Source: Escherichia coli (GTDB taxonomy: Bacteria > Pseudomonadota > Gammaproteobacteria > Enterobacterales > Enterobacteriaceae). From it: a DNA stretch of 64,000 nt. Position 1 is the first letter of the stretch. Each line of letters opens with the position of its first letter. Below are positions 24,701 to 30,700 of this stretch, piece by piece. Position numbers: made by a program. The stretch lies in the NCBI RefSeq assembly GCF_024223415.1, contig NZ_CP100500.1, one strand, 5' to 3'.

Positions 24701-27700
24701 TGCACAATGATCGAGGCGTTTAGTTGCTGGTCTGCCGCCTGTGGCATGCCACCCAGTTGACCACCAGAAATCTGGTTGTTTTGCACCTTAATCTGGGAAA
24801 TAACATCGGAAGGTACCAGGTTATATTTATTGAGTTTTTGCGGGTCCAGCCAGATCCGCATGGCGTACTCGGAACCAAAGAGCTGTACGCTACCAACGCC
24901 CGCGGTACGGCTTAGCGGGTCTTTGATATTAGACGCTACATAGTCCGCGATATCGTACTGGTTGAGGCTGCCGTTATCAGAAATAAACGCCGCAACCATC
25001 AGGATATTACTGCTCGATTTATCGACGCTAATCCCCTGCTGCTGCACTGCTTCAGGTAATGAAGGCATAGCGAGTTGCAGTTTATTTTGCACCTGAACCT
25101 GTGCGATATCAGGAGATGTCCCAGTCTCGAAGGTCAGAGTGATAGAGGCATTACCCGCCGCATCACTGGTTGAAGACATGTACATCAGGCCATCAAGCCC
25201 ATTCATATTTTGCTCAATCACCTGAGTGACCGAGTCTTCTACCGTTTGCGCATCGGCACCCGGATAGGTAGCGCTGACGGTAATGGTCGGTGGCGCAATC
25301 TGCGGATACTGCGCAACCGGTAAGTTCATGATCGCCAGACCACCTGCAAGCATCATAATAATGGCAAGTACCCAGGCAAAAACCGGGCGATCAATAAAAT
25401 AGTTAGCCATGAAAGTCCCCTTAAGCCTGCAACGTTATTGTTTCGATTCGGTGCTGGCGTTTTCCTGGCTGGAGGAAATTGCTCGTGCTTTGATACCCGG
25501 ACGAATGCGTTGCAAACCGGAAACGATCACCCGATCGCCAGCCTGCAAGCCAGAGGTGACAACCCACTGGTCGCCGATGGCTTTGCTGGCTTCAATTTCG
25601 CGTAGCTGCACGACATCGTCTTTATCCAGAATGAGCGCCGTTGCTTTACCCTGGGCGTTGTGGGTGACGCCTTCCTGCGGCACCAGTAATACATTCTGGC
25701 GGCTACCTTCATCCACTAATGCCGTGACATACATGCCAGGCAGCAAGTCACCATTTGGGTTGGGGAAAATCGCCCGTAACGTCACGGAGCCCGTGGTTTC
25801 ATCAACCGTCGGGTCGGAGAATTTCAGCGTGCCGGTCTGGCTGTAACGTTTACCATTTTCCAGATTGAGCTGTACTGGCGTACTGCCCTGAACCTGTTTG
25901 ATTTGCCCACTGGCGACCTCTTCTTTCATGCGTAAGAAATCTTGCACCGACTGCGTGAGATCGACATAAATCGGGTCCAGACGTTGTACGGTAACCAGCG
26001 AATCTGCCTGATTAGCGGTAACGAGTGCGCCGACGGTCACCGACGATTTCCCGCTGACGCCCGTAATCGGCGAGGTGACATTCGCGTATTGCAGATTGAT
26101 CGTCGCCTGTTCAACAGCCGCTTTGGCGACGGTGACATTGGCTTCTGCTTCATTCAACTGGGTGCGCGCGGTGTCGTAATCCTGACGGCTAACGTAGTTG
26201 GTCTTCAGCAACGATGCCTGGCGGTTAAAGGTGATACGGGCATTGCTGGCGGTAGAGAGCGCTTTCGCCAGCGAGCCTTTGGCGGAGTTTAGCTCGGCCT
26301 GTAAAGGTGCAGGATCAATCTGATACAGCGAATCGCCCTGGTTCACTTTATCGCCTTCGATAAAGTTGCGTTTAATGATAATACCGCCCACCTGGGGACG
26401 TATCTCGGCAACTTCATAAGGAACGGTTCTACCGGGCAATTCGCTCAACACATTGACCGACCCAGGGGAGAGTGTGACGACACCGACCTCAGGCGTCATG
26501 GCGGCGGTGTTTTCCGCCGATTTGTCATCGCAGGCGGTGAGCATCGCGCCGCAGAATAACAACGGTATTAACAGCTTTCTTCTTCTGTTCATTTTATTCC
26601 CTGAAAATTCTTGAGAAATAACGGTTCTTTAAATTGCGCGCGAGGAGAGATATGAGGGATTTACAGACCAGCGGCATAGTGGGGTTGTCAGCCAGTAAGG
26701 TGGGATACAGGCATAGTGATCGACATGGTGAGGTCAACGACAAAAAAAATGTTGCCGTTCTGCCAACAGTTCCTGCCAGCATTCGGGCAACGAAGGGTTC
26801 TACTGGTGGATACACATACCAGGGGAATAAAGTCGTTTTAGCCTCTCCTTTAGTAATCACCGGGGGTAATGAAATCAGCATCTGCATCCCTCGTCATGCC
26901 AGCCATCAATTTCAGTTGCTTATGTCCTGACTAAAAATAAGATGTGATACCCAGGGTGACGATGTCGCTCATACGTCTTAGTTTCAGCTTGTACATAATG
27001 TTGAATTTCTGAATCTTTAATGTTTGTTGCGAAATATTAAGCGCCGACGTGATATTGCTTTCATTTTTATTTTTCAGAATCAGTTGCATAATTTTGAACT
27101 GATTATGTGAAAAACATAATTGTGAATTCTTATGGGGCAAGTGTTTACCATAAGTAATCTCAAGAAGATTTTTGATACTTTCTTTGCGGCTAACAAAATA
27201 AATAGGCGCTTTAGCTTTTAGTTTACTGATGTGATAAGGTGCCAAAACAATAATTCTCTCGGCATCTAATTTCTCCAGAAATTTAATCGCTTCTTCATCA
27301 AGGATATGATTGTGATAGGTATCAATGATAACCTTGAAGGGTTTATTGCCTACTTTTTTGATCTCTGACAGGGAATTGATTTTTATCATTTCGTGATTAT
27401 CTTTCAACTGCCAAAAGCCCTGTAAAAGAAAAGAATCTTTCGTCATGAGAAAAATCATAACTTGCTCCTTAGCCGTTATCGTTTCGAACATGTCATCCTT
27501 TTCATTATTTACATCCTTGTCCGAATCGTTGTTCAATATAGTAAACGCCTATAAGAACTTTGCCCTTCGTGAACTAATACGTCTATTAACACTAATCAAT
27601 ACTTCAGATTTATCCATCACGCACTCCATATATTGATCCTAAGTAAGATTCCTGGTTGTTATCAGTTTGTAAATAGCAAACAAAAAGTTAACGTTTGCGG

Positions 27701-30700
27701 ATTACTGCCCAAGAATAAGTTATCAATAACCAGTTTGTGATCTCTGAAGAATATTACTAAAGTTAAAATGTAATCCGATTTAAATATCGAGTCTCCTTGT
27801 TTCGACTTAAGCTGGCAATTGGATTGCCAGCTTTCTTTTAACGCATTGAAATTACCTGAGTAAATAACACATTCATGTCTTCAGGTTTTTATATAGCGTC
27901 TGGAGACACGGATATTTATGCAATGTAATCAACGCCAGTTGCAAAAAAATGAACCCGGATTACTTATTTAACCGCCCATAGCATCAACGCTTACGGAACT
28001 CTTTGTTCACTTTCCCACAGCACTTTTAAAACATTAAACCTGACTACGGAAAATATCAGCCATGATAATGTTTGAAATGGCTAATTTGCCATGGAGTGAA
28101 AAAAATTAGATGAAATTCAGTAGGTTGAAATAATCACTAGCAGGTAATTATTTCAATGATAGTGCGCAATTGATCTACAACACTGCGTAGCGGAGAGAGT
28201 ATTAATCGGATCATAGTCACATCAAGTGACTATGATCCGGGTGACAACCGGGATAATTATTGCTGCTTAACGAACAAACTGGCGAAGCTGAACAGGCTGG
28301 CGGCGCTAAATATCAGTTCAATTCCCACCAGTGTGGAAACCAGCGTTACAGACACCATCGGCGTTGCACCAAGGAATATCCAGGCAATGACGATATCCAG
28401 CACACCAATAACGAGCTGTAGCCAGCTGCCTTTCATTGAACGCTGACGATACCAACTCATCAGGCGAATAACCCCTGCAACACAGAACAAACCGGCAATA
28501 AATGCCGCAATGGCAAAAATGCCCAGCTCCGGTGCGCGGATGAAGAAATAGCCGATCAATAAATAGGCGACTGCGACGAGGAAACCGGATAATACCGGCC
28601 AGAAATTATGACTGCGGTTGCTGAATACCCCGACAATAAGCGCAATACCCGAGCAGATTAATAATGCACCCACTACTGTGCTTAAAATATCGCCAGAGAC
28701 GAACGGGAAACTGATACACAGCAACCCGACGATAAACAGCAGCACGGCAATAAACTGGATTGCTCTGCGATGCTTTTTCAGCATCTCCAGATCAAACTTC
28801 AAAATTGTTGCCTTATCTATATATAACATAGAACCACCCTATAAAATTAAGAAGAAAATCCCCTGCTATCAATCTATGCCAAAAACGCGTCTAAGAATGC
28901 AGTCGATTTAATAAAAATTTCCTAATTGCAGTATCTGATGCATCTGTAACTCATTGTATTGAAATAAAAATATCTTATTTTGATATTTTCCATCAACATG
29001 ACATATACAGAAAACCAGGTTATAACCTCAGTGTCGAAATTGATTCGTGACGGCTCTTTCACTTTATAGTTGAGGATATTACGATGAAAAAAGTATTAGG
29101 CGTTATTCTTGGTGGTCTGCTTCTTCTGCCAGTTGTGAGCAATGCAGCGGATGCGCAAAAAGCAGCTGATAACAAAAAACCGGTCAACTCCTGGACCTGT
29201 GAAGATTTCCTGGCTGTGGACGAATCCTTCCAGCCAACTGCAGTTGGTTTTGCTGAAGCGCTGAACAACAAAGATAAACCAGAAGATGCGGTTTTAGATG
29301 TTCAGGGTATTGCAACCGTAACCCCAGCTATCGTTCAGGCTTGTACTCAGGATAAACAAGCCAACTTTAAAGATAAAGTTAAAGGCGAATGGGACAAAAT
29401 TAAGAAAGATATGTAATTCCGGGAATGCGTTACATCGTACTTCCTTGCATATTGAACAGGCCGGAATATCTTGCTTTAAAAGCAGCTATTCCTCCTGTTC
29501 ATATATAATCTCTATATTGAATGGGTTACAAAATGAATATTTCATCTCTCCGTAAAGCGTTTATTTTTATGGGCGCTGTAGCGGCTTTGTCACTAGTGAA
29601 CGCACAATCTGCGCTGGCAGCCAATGAATCCGCTAAAGATATGACCTGCCAGGAATTTATTGATCTGAATCCAAAAGCAATGACCCCGGTTGCATGGTGG
29701 ATGCTGCATGAAGAAACAGTATATAAAGGTGGCGATACCGTTACTTTAAATGAAACCGATCTCACTCAAATTCCTAAAGTGATCGAATACTGCAAGAAAA
29801 ACCCGCAGAAAAATTTGTATACCTTCAAAAATCAAGCATCTAATGACTTGCCGAATTAATGAGGTACAAGTAAAAAGGAGTAGCAAGTTGAGCCATCTTG
29901 CTGCTCCTTTTTGCATTTTTATATGACAGCAGAATTTATTATACGTCTTATACTCGCGGCAATTGCCTGTGGCGCTATTGGCATGGAAAGGCAAATGCGC
30001 GGCAAAGGAGCAGGGTTACGCACACATGTATTAATTGGCATGGGAAGCGCCCTGTTTATGATTGTTTCGAAATATGGTTTTGCTGACGTACTGTCTTTAG
30101 ATCACGTCGGACTGGACCCCAGCCGTATTGCTGCTCAGGTGGTGACGGGCGTCGGGTTTATCGGTGCAGGTAACATTCTCGTTCGTAACCAAAATATTGT
30201 AGGTTTGACGACGGCAGCGGATATCTGGGTGACCGCCGCCATAGGTATGGTTATTGGCAGTGGTATGTACGAACTGGGTATTTATGGTTCAGTGATGACC
30301 TTGCTGGTGCTGGAAGTCTTCCATCAATTAACCTTCCGCCTGATGAACAAAAATTACCATTTACAGCTGACATTAGTGAACGGTAATACGGTATCAATGC
30401 TCGACTGGTTTAAGCAGCAAAAAATAAAAACTGATTTAGTTTCGTTGCAGGAAAATGAAGATCATGAAGTGGTCGCCATTGATATCCAGCTTCATGCCAC
30501 AACGTCGATAGAAGATCTGTTGCGATTATTAAAAGGTATGGCAGGGGTGAAAGGCGTTTCAATTAGCTAATCTGTATAGTTATTTATTCGCAGGAGTACC
30601 AGTGCGGTACTCCTGTTGCTTTTAATGATCGAGGACGATCAGTGGTGAATGGTTGGCAGGATCTTTAAGTACGGTAATATCCGCGCCGTAGAGCATTGTC

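What the first reader, a model, noticed from the sequence alone, without database searches (positions are those of the whole stretch)
26593..29083. Long AT-rich non-coding regions around gadE and hdeD likely hold dense regulatory and antisense elements
About 800 bp of AT-rich DNA separates gadE from hdeD, and about 340 bp separates mdtE from gadE. Such long AT-rich leaders are typical of H-NS-silenced, multi-promoter control regions, and antisense or 3'-UTR-derived sRNAs have been reported in this island. I could not delimit individual promoters or sRNAs from sequence alone.
Basis: partly seen in the sequence, partly recalled or inferred. Interest (0 to 1): 0.2.

Follow-up and report, generated by a model that had tools for sequence, protein, structure and literature searches.

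The report
Known gadE/hdeD acid-resistance control regions
These stretches are the well-studied control regions of the E. coli acid-resistance island: several promoters, H-NS silencing and the small RNAs ArrS and GadF.

Summary
Window 26593-29083 is the hdeA/hdeD/gadE/mdtE part of the E. coli acid fitness island, in reverse orientation. It is 99.4% identical to K-12, with 14 SNPs and no indels.

The gap lengths are right: 338, 798 and 254 bp. Two gaps are AT-rich: gadE-hdeD at 36.1% GC and hdeD-hdeA at 32.7%. The mdtE-gadE gap is not, at 46.4% GC against a window mean of 48.4%.

- gadE transcription starts at -566, -324/-317, -124 and -21
- hdeA and hdeD starts
- three GadE ChIP-exo sites
- a YdeO-box-like repeat
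- the antisense sRNA ArrS (27770-27839, +)
- the gadE 3'-UTR sRNA GadF (26742-26832, -; Rfam ES205, 105 bits)
- four Term-seq 3' ends
- H-NS/StpA-dependent occupancy of the whole locus

Across seven Escherichia lineages, ArrS, the proximal gadE leader and the P3 promoter are 96-97% conserved. The flanking coding sequences are 90-92%.

The 338-bp gap is a 3' UTR and intra-operon spacer, not a promoter region. A lacZ fusion to it was inactive.

One non-textbook observation: a 97-codon frame crosses the GadF terminator and stops 1 nt before the mdtE ATG. It stays open in all lineages (permutation p about 0.004) but shows no sign of coding selection. I treat it as a low-probability lead.

Verdict: real, ordinary, already known.

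The parts
28830..29083 (.). hdeA-hdeD divergent promoter region (254 bp, 32.7% GC)
   Evidence: Composition. It is 90% conserved across 7 Escherichia lineages, similar to the flanking coding sequences. GadE and RpoS occupancy of the divergent promoters is published (PMC4918353). H-NS ChIP-qPCR is published.
29021..29033 (+). hdeA promoter: -10 TATAAC (29021-29026) and transcription start at 29033
   Evidence: The start is derived from the GadE ChIP-exo table: site centre at +9.5 from the start, U00096.2 coordinates +1977. The hexamer was read from the sequence.
29027..29058 (.). GadE ChIP-exo site at hdeAB-yhiD
   Evidence: PMC4918353 supplement, site P9 3654789-3654820, mapped by w = 3685824 - (x + 1977).
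28904..28932 (.). GadE ChIP-exo site at hdeD, containing the best GAD-box-like 20-mer of the region (28906-28925, TTAGGAAATTTTTATTAAAT, 15 of 20). A second copy lies 53 bp away at 28959-28978.
28830..28876 (-). hdeD promoter (-10 TAGATT at 28871-28876, start at 28864) and 35-nt hdeD 5' UTR, the published target of CyaR, RprA and Hfq
   Evidence: The start codon lies at about +36 in PMC5861431. The ChIP-exo site centre at -54 gives the same start. Sequence.
28203..28239 (-). hdeD 3' hairpin (14-bp perfect stem 28207-28239, loop UUGAU, no U-tract), with the mapped hdeD 3' end 4 nt downstream at 28203
   Evidence: Inverted repeat I5. Fold -26.1 kcal/mol, z = -6.1. Three stem pairs change on both sides across species and 93% of cells stay paired. 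Term-seq 3' end at K-12 3657621.
28126..28155 (.). YdeO-box-like inverted repeat TGAAAT-N18-ATTTCA, at -102 to -131 from the P3 start
   Evidence: 2 matches in the window against 0.19 expected. The YdeO box ATTTCA and YdeO binding to gadEp2p3 are in PMC4222967. Assigning this copy to YdeO is my inference.
28024..28036 (-). gadE promoter P3: -10 TAATGT (28031-28036) and start T3 at 28024 (-566)
   Evidence: Start position from PMC3708157. Hexamer. The 50 bp upstream are 96% conserved across species.
27840..28023 (-). Distal part of the T3 leader. It is poorly conserved (52%), and a 65-90-bp segment is present only in the E. coli lineages.
   Evidence: The conservation break falls exactly at the ArrS 3' end.
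27770..27839 (+). ArrS antisense sRNA (70 nt). It has a sigma-S-type -10 (CTAAAGT, 27757-27763) and a terminator hairpin at 27809-27833 followed by UCUUUU. On the gadE strand the same palindrome precedes a mapped 3' end at 27805.
   Evidence: K-12 annotation of arrS, b4704. There are no SNPs against K-12 in this interval. Fold z = -3.8. Terminator scan. It is 97% conserved. Term-seq 3' ends at 27839(+) and 27805(-). Function from PMC6755755, PMC5145812 and PMC6212723.
27775..27782 (-). gadE starts T2 (-317 and -324). They overlap the ArrS 5' end head to head.
   Evidence: PMC3708157. Upstream sequence.
27620..27654 (.). GadE ChIP-exo autoregulation site, centred at -55 from the P1 start
   Evidence: PMC4918353 supplement, site P11 3656193-3656227. 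GadE autoregulates P1 (outline).
27459..27594 (-). gadE promoter P1 (-10 TAGTGT at 27589-27594, start T1 at 27582) and the 124-nt proximal leader. The leader has four GGA motifs (27522, 27516, 27498, 27468) and the SD AAGGAG (27465-27470).
   Evidence: Starts. Sequence. The leader is 97% conserved against 92% for the gadE coding sequence. CsrA binds the gadE leader with KD 138 nM (PMC11210196).
26742..26832 (-). GadF sRNA (91 nt), from the gadE 3' UTR. Terminator hairpin at 26751-26791, U8 run at 26742-26749, mapped 3' end at 26743.
   Evidence: K-12 annotation of gadF, b4718. Rfam ES205 RF02754, 105 bits against a gathering score of 86, over 26742-26813. Fold z = -2.3. 96% of pair cells are kept across species. 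Term-seq. It is processed from gadE mRNA and binds Hfq (PMC5145812).
26593..26741 (-). 149-nt spacer between the GadF terminator and mdtE. It is C-rich and G-poor on the RNA strand (C/G 1.88, 99th percentile), which resembles a Rho utilisation site.
   Evidence: It is 82% conserved. No promoter activity was found for the gap.
26594..26887 (-). Candidate only: a 97-codon open frame. GAGGG lies 6 nt before its second ATG, it runs through the GadF terminator, and its TAA stop ends 1 nt before the mdtE ATG.
   Evidence: See the section on the most novel reading and the rival explanations.

Best explanation
The interval holds the control regions of the E. coli acid fitness island.

(1) The AT-rich 254-bp hdeA/hdeD spacer and the 798-bp hdeD-gadE spacer are coated and silenced by H-NS/StpA under non-inducing conditions. 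Local activators and sigma-S reopen them: YdeO at the distal gadE promoters, GadE with its own sites at gadE P1, hdeD and hdeA, and ArcA. Transcription then fires from hdeAp, hdeDp and gadE P3, P2 and P1.

(2) The long gadE leaders are controlled after transcription. ArrS is made from the opposite strand and pairs perfectly with the P3-derived leader, directing RNase III-dependent processing to a more stable gadE mRNA. ArrS also acts in trans, for example on cfa. CsrA binds the conserved proximal leader.

(3) The hdeD mRNA is closed by a strong conserved hairpin. Its 35-nt 5' UTR is targeted by CyaR, RprA and Hfq.

(4) The 338-bp gadE-mdtE interval is not a promoter. It is the gadE 3' UTR. An intrinsic terminator there, together with 5' processing, releases the Hfq-binding sRNA GadF. 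Polymerases that read through the terminator and the C-rich spacer transcribe mdtEF.

Status of each step. Shown here: the sequence anatomy, its identity to K-12, the Rfam match, the folds and the cross-species conservation. Taken from published K-12 experiments: transcription starts, 3' ends, protein occupancy and sRNA function. Inferred: that these apply unchanged to this strain; that the 28126-28155 repeat is the YdeO site; that the hdeD hairpin ends or stabilises the transcript; and that the GadF terminator limits mdtEF expression.
For: Identity and co-linearity with K-12: 14 SNPs in 2491 bp and no indels, with none in ArrS or GadF. The locus is present in 5416 of 5426 complete E. coli genomes.

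K-12 annotation places arrS and gadF in the two intervals. Rfam ES205 scores 105 bits at 26742-26813.

Every published transcription start has a TAnnnT hexamer at -12 to -7 in this sequence, except hdeA (TATAAC), the doubtful -21 site and the -324 member of the T2 pair, which have none there. ArrS has the C at -13 typical of sigma-S promoters.

The GadE ChIP-exo sites fall on the GAD-box-like repeats and at -55 from P1.

Term-seq 3' ends fall within 4 nt after the hdeD hairpin and after the gadE-strand hairpin, on the last U after the ArrS hairpin, and inside the GadF U-run.

Folds are more stable than shuffles: z = -6.1 for the hdeD hairpin, -3.8 for ArrS and -2.3 for GadF. The hdeD hairpin shows compensatory changes.

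Conservation footprint: ArrS 97%, T1 leader 97% and P3 96%, against gadE coding sequence 92% and hdeD coding sequence 90%.

H-NS evidence. ArrS and GadF function. CsrA. CyaR and RprA on hdeD. PmdtE-lacZ inactive and mdtEF driven from PgadE.
Against: No experiment was done on this strain. All functional data are transferred from K-12.

The window carries 6 SNPs in the 798-bp region, including leader positions 27562 and 27489. It also has a private SNP at 28976 in the second GAD-box-like repeat, and the effects of these are unknown.

The simple sigma-70 consensus scan found no more promoter-like sites than in shuffled sequence (7 against 8.0 +/- 2.9) and missed all published starts. Sequence alone therefore would not have delimited the promoters.

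The H-NS high-affinity motif shows no local enrichment.

The hdeD hairpin lacks a U-tract, so it is not a canonical intrinsic terminator.

An older EMSA report of EvgA binding to the gadE-mdtE spacer (cited) is not explained by this model.
Confidence: 0.9

Rival explanations
1. The 338-bp gadE-mdtE interval contains an independent, regulator-dependent mdtE promoter, as the reader's phrase 'multi-promoter leader' implies.
For: Nishino and Yamaguchi reported EvgA binding to this intergenic region by EMSA, as cited in PMC3708157.
Against: PmdtE-lacZ gave no transcription aerobically or anaerobically, and mdtEF expression followed PgadE. The gap is not AT-rich at 46.4% GC. No sigma-70-like site was found in it. 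No EvgA-box match lies in it; the only window match, at 25921-25938, is inside mdtE and is at chance level. The only feature K-12 annotates in this gap is the sRNA gene gadF, and the only 3' end found there is the GadF terminator.
Confidence: 0.1
2. The gadE-mdtE interval encodes a protein: either the PGAP 'hypothetical protein' on the + strand (26652-26930, 92 aa; the full open frame starts at 26634 and is 98 aa) or the 97-codon frame on the gadE strand.
For: PGAP annotates the + strand ORF in most RefSeq E. coli genomes. The gadE-strand frame is open in seven Escherichia lineages, in K-12 and in the other intact E. coli loci examined. A permutation test of stop avoidance gives 86 of 20000.
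Against: Neither ORF has a Pfam match. Variable sites in the gadE-strand frame are spread 31/37/38 over codon positions, against 14/8/76 in gadE, so there is no purifying selection on a peptide. The + strand ORF carries stops in two lineages. The gadE-strand frame is cut short by U-run length variants: T7 in 234 genomes against T8 in 3959, plus rare T9. It is not annotated in K-12. It is absent from the supplement of a ribosome-profiling small-ORF survey. Gene callers rarely call it.
Confidence: 0.08
3. The AT-rich spacers are compositional relics of horizontally acquired DNA with little specific function beyond H-NS coating.
For: Low GC extends through the gadE coding sequence itself at 33%. 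Part of the T3 leader (27840-28023) is poorly conserved and partly absent in other Escherichia species.
Against: Sub-regions are more conserved than the neighbouring genes: ArrS, the T1 leader and P3 at 96-97%. Mapped starts, 3' ends and binding sites coincide with them.
Confidence: 0.02

Closest known systems
E. coli K-12 gadE upstream 'sensory integration' region (798 bp, promoters P3/P2/P1, ArrS) and the gadE-mdtEF operon
   Same: Same locus, same length, 99.4% identical and co-linear. All published starts, the ArrS gene, the GadE site and the YdeO-box-like repeat are present.
   Different: Six SNPs within the 798 bp. The strain context differs: chu/shu haem-uptake genes follow yhiD, where the K-12 annotation fetched here stops inside yhiD; that dctR/slp follow in K-12 is from general knowledge.
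GadF / Rfam ES205 (RF02754), a 3'-UTR-derived Hfq-binding sRNA, like CpxQ from cpxP
   Same: Full-length Rfam match and identical to K-12 gadF. It has an intrinsic terminator with a U8 tail and lies directly downstream of the regulator gene whose pathway it co-regulates.
   Different: Nothing specific to this window. Across E. coli genomes the U-run varies between 7, 8 and 9.
ArrS, and by analogy GadY: cis-antisense sRNAs of the acid island that also act in trans
   Same: Identical to K-12 arrS. It is antisense to the P3-derived gadE leader, has a sigma-S-type -10 and a strong terminator hairpin. GadY itself is in the window at 20850-20963.
   Different: ArrS has no match in Rfam 15, even at the permissive threshold. 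Membership therefore rests on sequence identity, not on a family model.
H-NS-silenced, counter-silenced promoters such as hdeAB, proU and bgl
   Same: AT-rich DNA, published H-NS/StpA occupancy, derepression in hns deletion mutants, and antagonism by specific activators.
   Different: The 338-bp gadE-mdtE spacer does not share the AT-rich composition.

Membership tests
GadF / ES205 sRNA (Rfam RF02754) | Covariance-model score at or above the curated gathering score, over the full model length | tested here: met
   105 bits against 86, model positions 1-72 of 72, at 26742-26813(-).
GadF / ES205 sRNA (Rfam RF02754) | Position in the gadE 3' UTR, with a terminator hairpin plus U-run | tested here: met
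   It starts 99 nt after the gadE stop. Hairpin at 26751-26791 and U8 at 26742-26749. The K-12 3' end maps to 26743.
GadF / ES205 sRNA (Rfam RF02754) | Autonomous ~90-nt RNA that binds Hfq and is processed from gadE mRNA | not testable with these tools
   Published for K-12 only (PMC5145812).
ArrS antisense sRNA | Sequence identity to K-12 arrS (b4704), located antisense to the gadE P3 leader | tested here: met
   K-12 3657985-3658054(-) maps to window 27770-27839(+), with no SNP in that interval.
ArrS antisense sRNA | Own promoter and intrinsic terminator | tested here: met
   CTAAAGT at -13 to -7. An 11-bp perfect stem followed by UCUUUU. The K-12 3' end maps to 27839. Promoter activity itself was not tested.
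H-NS-silenced multi-promoter control region | AT-rich DNA relative to its surroundings | tested here: met
   36.1% and 32.7% GC for the 798-bp and 254-bp gaps, the 7.6th and 3.2nd percentiles. This is not met for the 338-bp gap at 46.4%.
H-NS-silenced multi-promoter control region | H-NS occupancy and derepression in an hns mutant | not testable with these tools
   Published for K-12. The H-NS motif scan was uninformative.
H-NS-silenced multi-promoter control region | Several mapped transcription starts | tested here: inconclusive
   The published K-12 starts have plausible -10 hexamers here, apart from the doubtful -21 site and the -324 member of the T2 pair. The consensus promoter scan is at chance level. 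There are no transcript data for this strain.
Canonical intrinsic terminator (for the hdeD 3' hairpin) | GC-rich stem-loop immediately followed by a U-tract | tested here: not met
   The stem is present (14 bp, -26.1 kcal/mol) but is followed by GAUUAAUAC. A 3' end is nevertheless mapped 4 nt downstream in K-12. I therefore call it a 3'-end-defining hairpin, not a canonical terminator.
GAD box (GadE binding site, TTAGGATTTTGTTATTTAAA) | Close match to the 20-bp consensus | tested here: inconclusive
   The best matches in the region are 15 of 20, at 28906-28925 and 28959-28978. The first lies inside a GadE ChIP-exo site. A perfect box exists elsewhere in the window at 18144.
Protein-coding gene (97-codon frame 26594-26887) | Excess of third-codon-position substitutions, or a family match | tested here: not met
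   Variable sites are 31/37/38 against 14/8/76 in gadE. No Pfam hit.

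The most novel reading that the evidence does not exclude
The 97-codon frame at 26887-26594(-) may be translated, not for its peptide but as a read-through and coupling device. It has GAGGG 6 nt before its second ATG, it crosses the GadF terminator and the C-rich spacer, and it stops at TAA 1 nt before the mdtE ATG. In one lineage it stops at the TGA of an ATGA overlap instead.

A ribosome following the polymerase through this frame would do three things. It would prevent the GadF terminator hairpin from forming. It would mask the Rho-utilisation-like spacer. It would deliver ribosomes to the mdtE start. Translation of the frame would then decide between releasing GadF and expressing the MdtEF efflux pump.

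The evidence does not exclude this. The frame is open in all seven Escherichia lineages despite 106 variable columns (86 of 20000 permutations). Indels in the divergent lineages are +9 and +12 nt, both in frame. The spacer's C/G ratio is in the 99th percentile. mdt transcripts are reported to rise in rho mutants.

Against it: there is no codon-position signal; frame-breaking T7 alleles occur in about 5.6% of the E. coli genomes that match the 81-nt test sequence exactly (234 of 4195; some may be homopolymer sequencing errors); no ribosome-profiling report exists; and I noticed the frame after looking, so the p-value is optimistic.
Probability: 0.1. Interest if true: 0.5.

Novelty: already known. 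Interest (0 to 1): 0.12.

Why it matters
The finding itself adds nothing to what is known. The gadE upstream region, ArrS, GadF and H-NS silencing of hdeAB/hdeD/gadE are textbook for this locus.

The practical value is a base-level map of those published elements onto this strain's coordinates, plus two corrections. First, the mdtE-gadE gap is a 3' UTR and read-through spacer, not an AT-rich promoter leader. Second, PGAP's antisense 'hypothetical protein' and its shortened mdtE start at this locus are probably annotation artefacts.

If the low-probability reading of the conserved open frame were true, it would explain how one transcript is divided between an sRNA and a multidrug efflux pump. 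That would interest people working on attenuation and on 3'-UTR sRNAs.

Tried and rejected
- Sigma-70 consensus scan of 26400-29300: 7 sites against 8.0 +/- 2.9 in shuffles, and none at a published start. It is uninformative for these activator- and sigma-S-dependent promoters.
- H-NS high-affinity motif TCGATAAATT with up to 2 mismatches: 99 against 78 +/- 10 in the whole window, with no cluster in the region. Dropped.
- EvgA box TTCYTACANNTGTARGAA: no match in the region. The single window match is inside mdtE and at chance level.
- YdeO box in the published orientation, ATTTCA-N9-21-TGAAAT: no match in the region. Only the opposite arrangement matches, at 28126-28155.
- Permissive Rfam scan: nothing besides ES205. 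A CRISPR-DR32 hit inside gadE at E = 0.8 is noise.
- Pfam on four intergenic or antisense ORFs: nothing. One hit at E = 0.06 is far below its cut-off.
- GadF covariation: pairs are kept, but only through one-sided or G-U changes. No double compensations in 6 sequences.
- Direct transcription-start tables: the Thomason 2015 dRNA-seq paper is not held, and the Cappable-seq GTF is truncated before 3.65 Mb.
- Ribosome-profiling supplements: no entry for this locus in Stringer 2021, and nothing is held for Weaver 2019.
- Literature search for a small protein or coupling at mdtE/gadF: no papers.

Full report
**What the interval is.** ORF listing and BLAST identify window 22.3-30.6 kb as the E. coli acid fitness island, in reverse orientation relative to K-12. 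The genes are mdtF 22297-25410(-), mdtE 25435-26592(-), gadE 26931-27458(-), hdeD 28257-28829(-), hdeA 29084-29416(+), then hdeB and yhiD. The 2491-bp finding interval is present in 5416 of 5426 complete E. coli genomes. It aligns to K-12 MG1655 without indels and with 14 substitutions, so K-12 coordinate x maps to window coordinate 3685824 - x.

**Check of the observation.**
- The gaps are 338 bp (mdtE-gadE), 798 bp (gadE-hdeD) and 254 bp (hdeD-hdeA).
- The last two are AT-rich: 36.1% and 32.7% GC, the 7.6th and 3.2nd percentiles of same-length windows. The window mean is 48.4%.
- The mdtE-gadE gap is 46.4% GC, the 31st percentile, and is not AT-rich.
- The lengths are therefore confirmed, and the composition claim holds for two gaps of three.

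**What is annotated and detectable.**
- The K-12 record carries two sRNA genes in exactly these gaps. arrS (b4704) maps to window 27770-27839(+), and gadF (b4718) maps to 26742-26832(-). Neither interval contains a SNP.
- Rfam's ES205 model, which covers the 3' 72 nt of GadF, scores 105 bits against a gathering score of 86.
- ArrS has no match in Rfam 15, even at the permissive threshold.
- GadF folds into a 5' hairpin plus a bulged terminator hairpin (26751-26791) followed by U8 (z = -2.3).
- ArrS ends in an 11-bp perfect hairpin followed by UCUUUU (z = -3.8).

**Published transcript ends mapped onto the window.**
- gadE starts at -21, -124 (T1), -324/-317 (T2) and -566 (T3) correspond to 27479, 27582, 27782/27775 and 28024 (PMC3708157).
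- The hdeD start is 28864. Two sources agree on it: the start codon at about +36 in PMC5861431, and the GadE ChIP-exo site centred at -54.
- The hdeA start is 29033.
- A TAnnnT hexamer sits at -12 to -7 at P3 (TAATGT), P1 (TAGTGT), hdeD (TAGATT) and arrS (TAAAGT, preceded by the sigma-S-type C at -13); hdeA has TATAAC there. T2 has A/T-rich hexamers a base or so off (GATATT, TATTTA), and the doubtful -21 site has none.
- The generic sigma-70 scan is at chance level and misses all of the starts. This fits promoters that depend on activators and sigma-S.
- Term-seq 3' ends from Adams et al. 2021 fall at these positions:
  - 28203(-), 4 nt after the hdeD hairpin
  - 27839(+), the ArrS 3' end
  - 27805(-), on the gadE strand, 4 nt after the reverse of the ArrS terminator and so inside the T3 leader
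  - 26743(-), in the GadF U-run
  - 28698(-), inside hdeD

**Protein-binding sites.**
- GadE ChIP-exo sites map to 29027-29058, 28904-28932 and 27620-27654.
- The middle site holds the region's best GAD-box-like 20-mer, 15 of 20 at 28906-28925. A second copy lies 53 bp away.
- An inverted repeat TGAAAT-N18-ATTTCA at 28126-28155 lies -102 to -131 from the T3 start. It contains the YdeO hexamer. Assigning it to YdeO is my inference.
- The proximal leader has four GGA motifs, and CsrA binds the gadE leader with KD 138 nM.

**H-NS.** This cannot be tested from sequence, and the motif scan was uninformative. Three published lines of evidence exist for K-12:
- H-NS represses PgadE and is antagonised by ArcA.
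- IPOD-HR shows a roughly 5-kb extended protein occupancy domain over hdeAB-yhiD, hdeD, arrS and gadEF. Most of it is lost in an hns stpA double deletion.

**Conservation.** I aligned the locus from six other Escherichia lineages: divergent E. coli-like genomes, E. albertii, E. whittamii and two unnamed species.

| Segment | Mean identity to the window |
|---|---|
| ArrS | 97.4% |
| 124-nt T1 leader | 96.6% |
| 50 bp upstream of T3 | 95.7% |
| gadE coding sequence | 91.8% |
| GadF | 90.3% |
| hdeD coding sequence | 89.6% |
| Distal T3 leader, 27840-28024 | 52% |

- The distal T3 leader has a 65-90-bp segment present only in E. coli lineages. The break falls exactly at the ArrS 3' end.
- The hdeD 3' hairpin (14-bp perfect stem, z = -6.1) keeps 93% of its pair cells, and three pairs change on both sides. 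It lacks a U-tract, so I call it a 3'-end-defining hairpin rather than a canonical terminator.

**The 338-bp gap.**
- A PmdtE-lacZ fusion of this interval was inactive, and mdtEF transcription came from PgadE.
- The interval has no promoter-like site and no EvgA box.
- Its content is the gadE 3' UTR, with GadF and its terminator, followed by a 149-nt spacer. That spacer is unusually C-rich and G-poor on the RNA strand: C/G 1.88, the 99th percentile.
- mdtEF expression therefore requires read-through. This last step is inference.

**A lead I followed.**
- A 97-codon frame on the gadE strand (26887-26594) has GAGGG 6 nt before its second ATG. It runs through the GadF terminator and ends at TAA 1 nt before the mdtE ATG.
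- It is open in all seven lineages, in K-12, and in five further E. coli genomes fetched.
- The indels in the divergent lineages are +9 and +12 nt. A +1 indel in one lineage moves the stop onto the TGA of the ATGA overlap with mdtE.
- When the 106 variable columns are shuffled among positions with the same reference base, the frame stays stop-free in all lineages in only 86 of 20000 trials.
- Against a real gene:
  - Variable sites are spread 31/37/38 over codon positions, against 14/8/76 in gadE.
  - There is no Pfam hit.
  - Gene callers rarely call it, and many database versions are frame-shifted at the U-run.
  - An exact-match census gives T8 in 3959 genomes, T7 in 234, T9 in 2 and T6 in none. 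T7 truncates the frame to 50 codons, though some T7 calls may be homopolymer errors.
  - A ribosome-profiling small-ORF supplement has no entry here.
- PGAP instead annotates the opposite-strand ORF as a hypothetical protein. That frame carries stops in two lineages.
- I rate the translated-for-read-through idea at about 0.1.

**Comparison with what is known, and verdict.** Each element is either the K-12 element itself (identical or nearly identical sequence at the same position) or a member of a curated family (ES205). The correction is that the mdtE-gadE gap is a 3' UTR and read-through spacer rather than an AT-rich promoter leader. Novelty: already known. Interest: low.

Noticed in passing
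window 27476-27505 (-): A 9-codon upstream ORF (MKRMTCSKR*) sits in the conserved gadE T1 leader, with AAGGA 8 nt upstream. It ends 17 nt before the gadE ATG. It stays open in all seven lineages, with two amino-acid changes in L005, one in L006/L008 and one silent change in K-12. evgA has a coupled leader peptide, and nothing comparable is reported for gadE.
   Followed up: partly
window 27805 (-) and 27809-27833: The ArrS terminator palindrome also precedes a mapped 3' end on the gadE strand, inside the P3-derived leader. This could be premature termination, or trimming back to the hairpin after cleavage directed by ArrS and RNase III.
   Followed up: partly
window 28690-28702 (-), 3' end at 28698: A small terminator-like hairpin followed by UAUUUU lies 131 nt into the hdeD ORF. 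It coincides with a published ORF-internal Term-seq 3' end.
   Followed up: partly
window 28976: This window has A where K-12 and all six other Escherichia lineages have C. The position is in the second GAD-box-like repeat, 57 bp upstream of the hdeA start.
   Followed up: no
window 27840-27935 approx.: A 65-90-bp segment of the distal gadE leader is present in E. coli lineages and absent in E. albertii, E. whittamii and two other Escherichia species. The boundary is exactly at the ArrS 3' end.
   Followed up: partly
L017 (NZ_CP194055.1, E. coli ATCC 43894 laboratory stock) 2755-3485: This O157:H7 stock carries a deletion running from early hdeD into mdtE. It removes gadE, ArrS, GadF and the whole control region.
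   Followed up: partly
window 25435-26592 (mdtE) and 26652-26930 (+): In the RefSeq genomes inspected other than K-12, PGAP starts mdtE 48 nt late (369 aa), which drops the lipoprotein signal peptide MNRRRKLLIPLLFCGAMLTAC. PGAP also annotates a 92-109-aa 'hypothetical protein' antisense to GadF. Both look like annotation artefacts.
   Followed up: partly
window 30622 onward; 36486-36517 (+): Haem-uptake chu/shu genes follow yhiD directly, as in O157:H7, rather than dctR and slp, which by general knowledge follow yhiD in K-12. There is an Rfam shuA/chuA thermoregulator hit at 60 bits.
   Followed up: no
window 20850-20963 (-) and 46726-46809 (-): Two other curated sRNAs are in the window: GadY (150 bits) and AgrB (107 bits).
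   Followed up: no
L009 and L010: Contigs carrying this E. coli locus at 97-99% identity sit in assemblies labelled Flavobacterium paronense CECT 8460 and Streptomyces sp. DH24. This is almost certainly contamination. L009 also has the T9 U-run allele.
   Followed up: no
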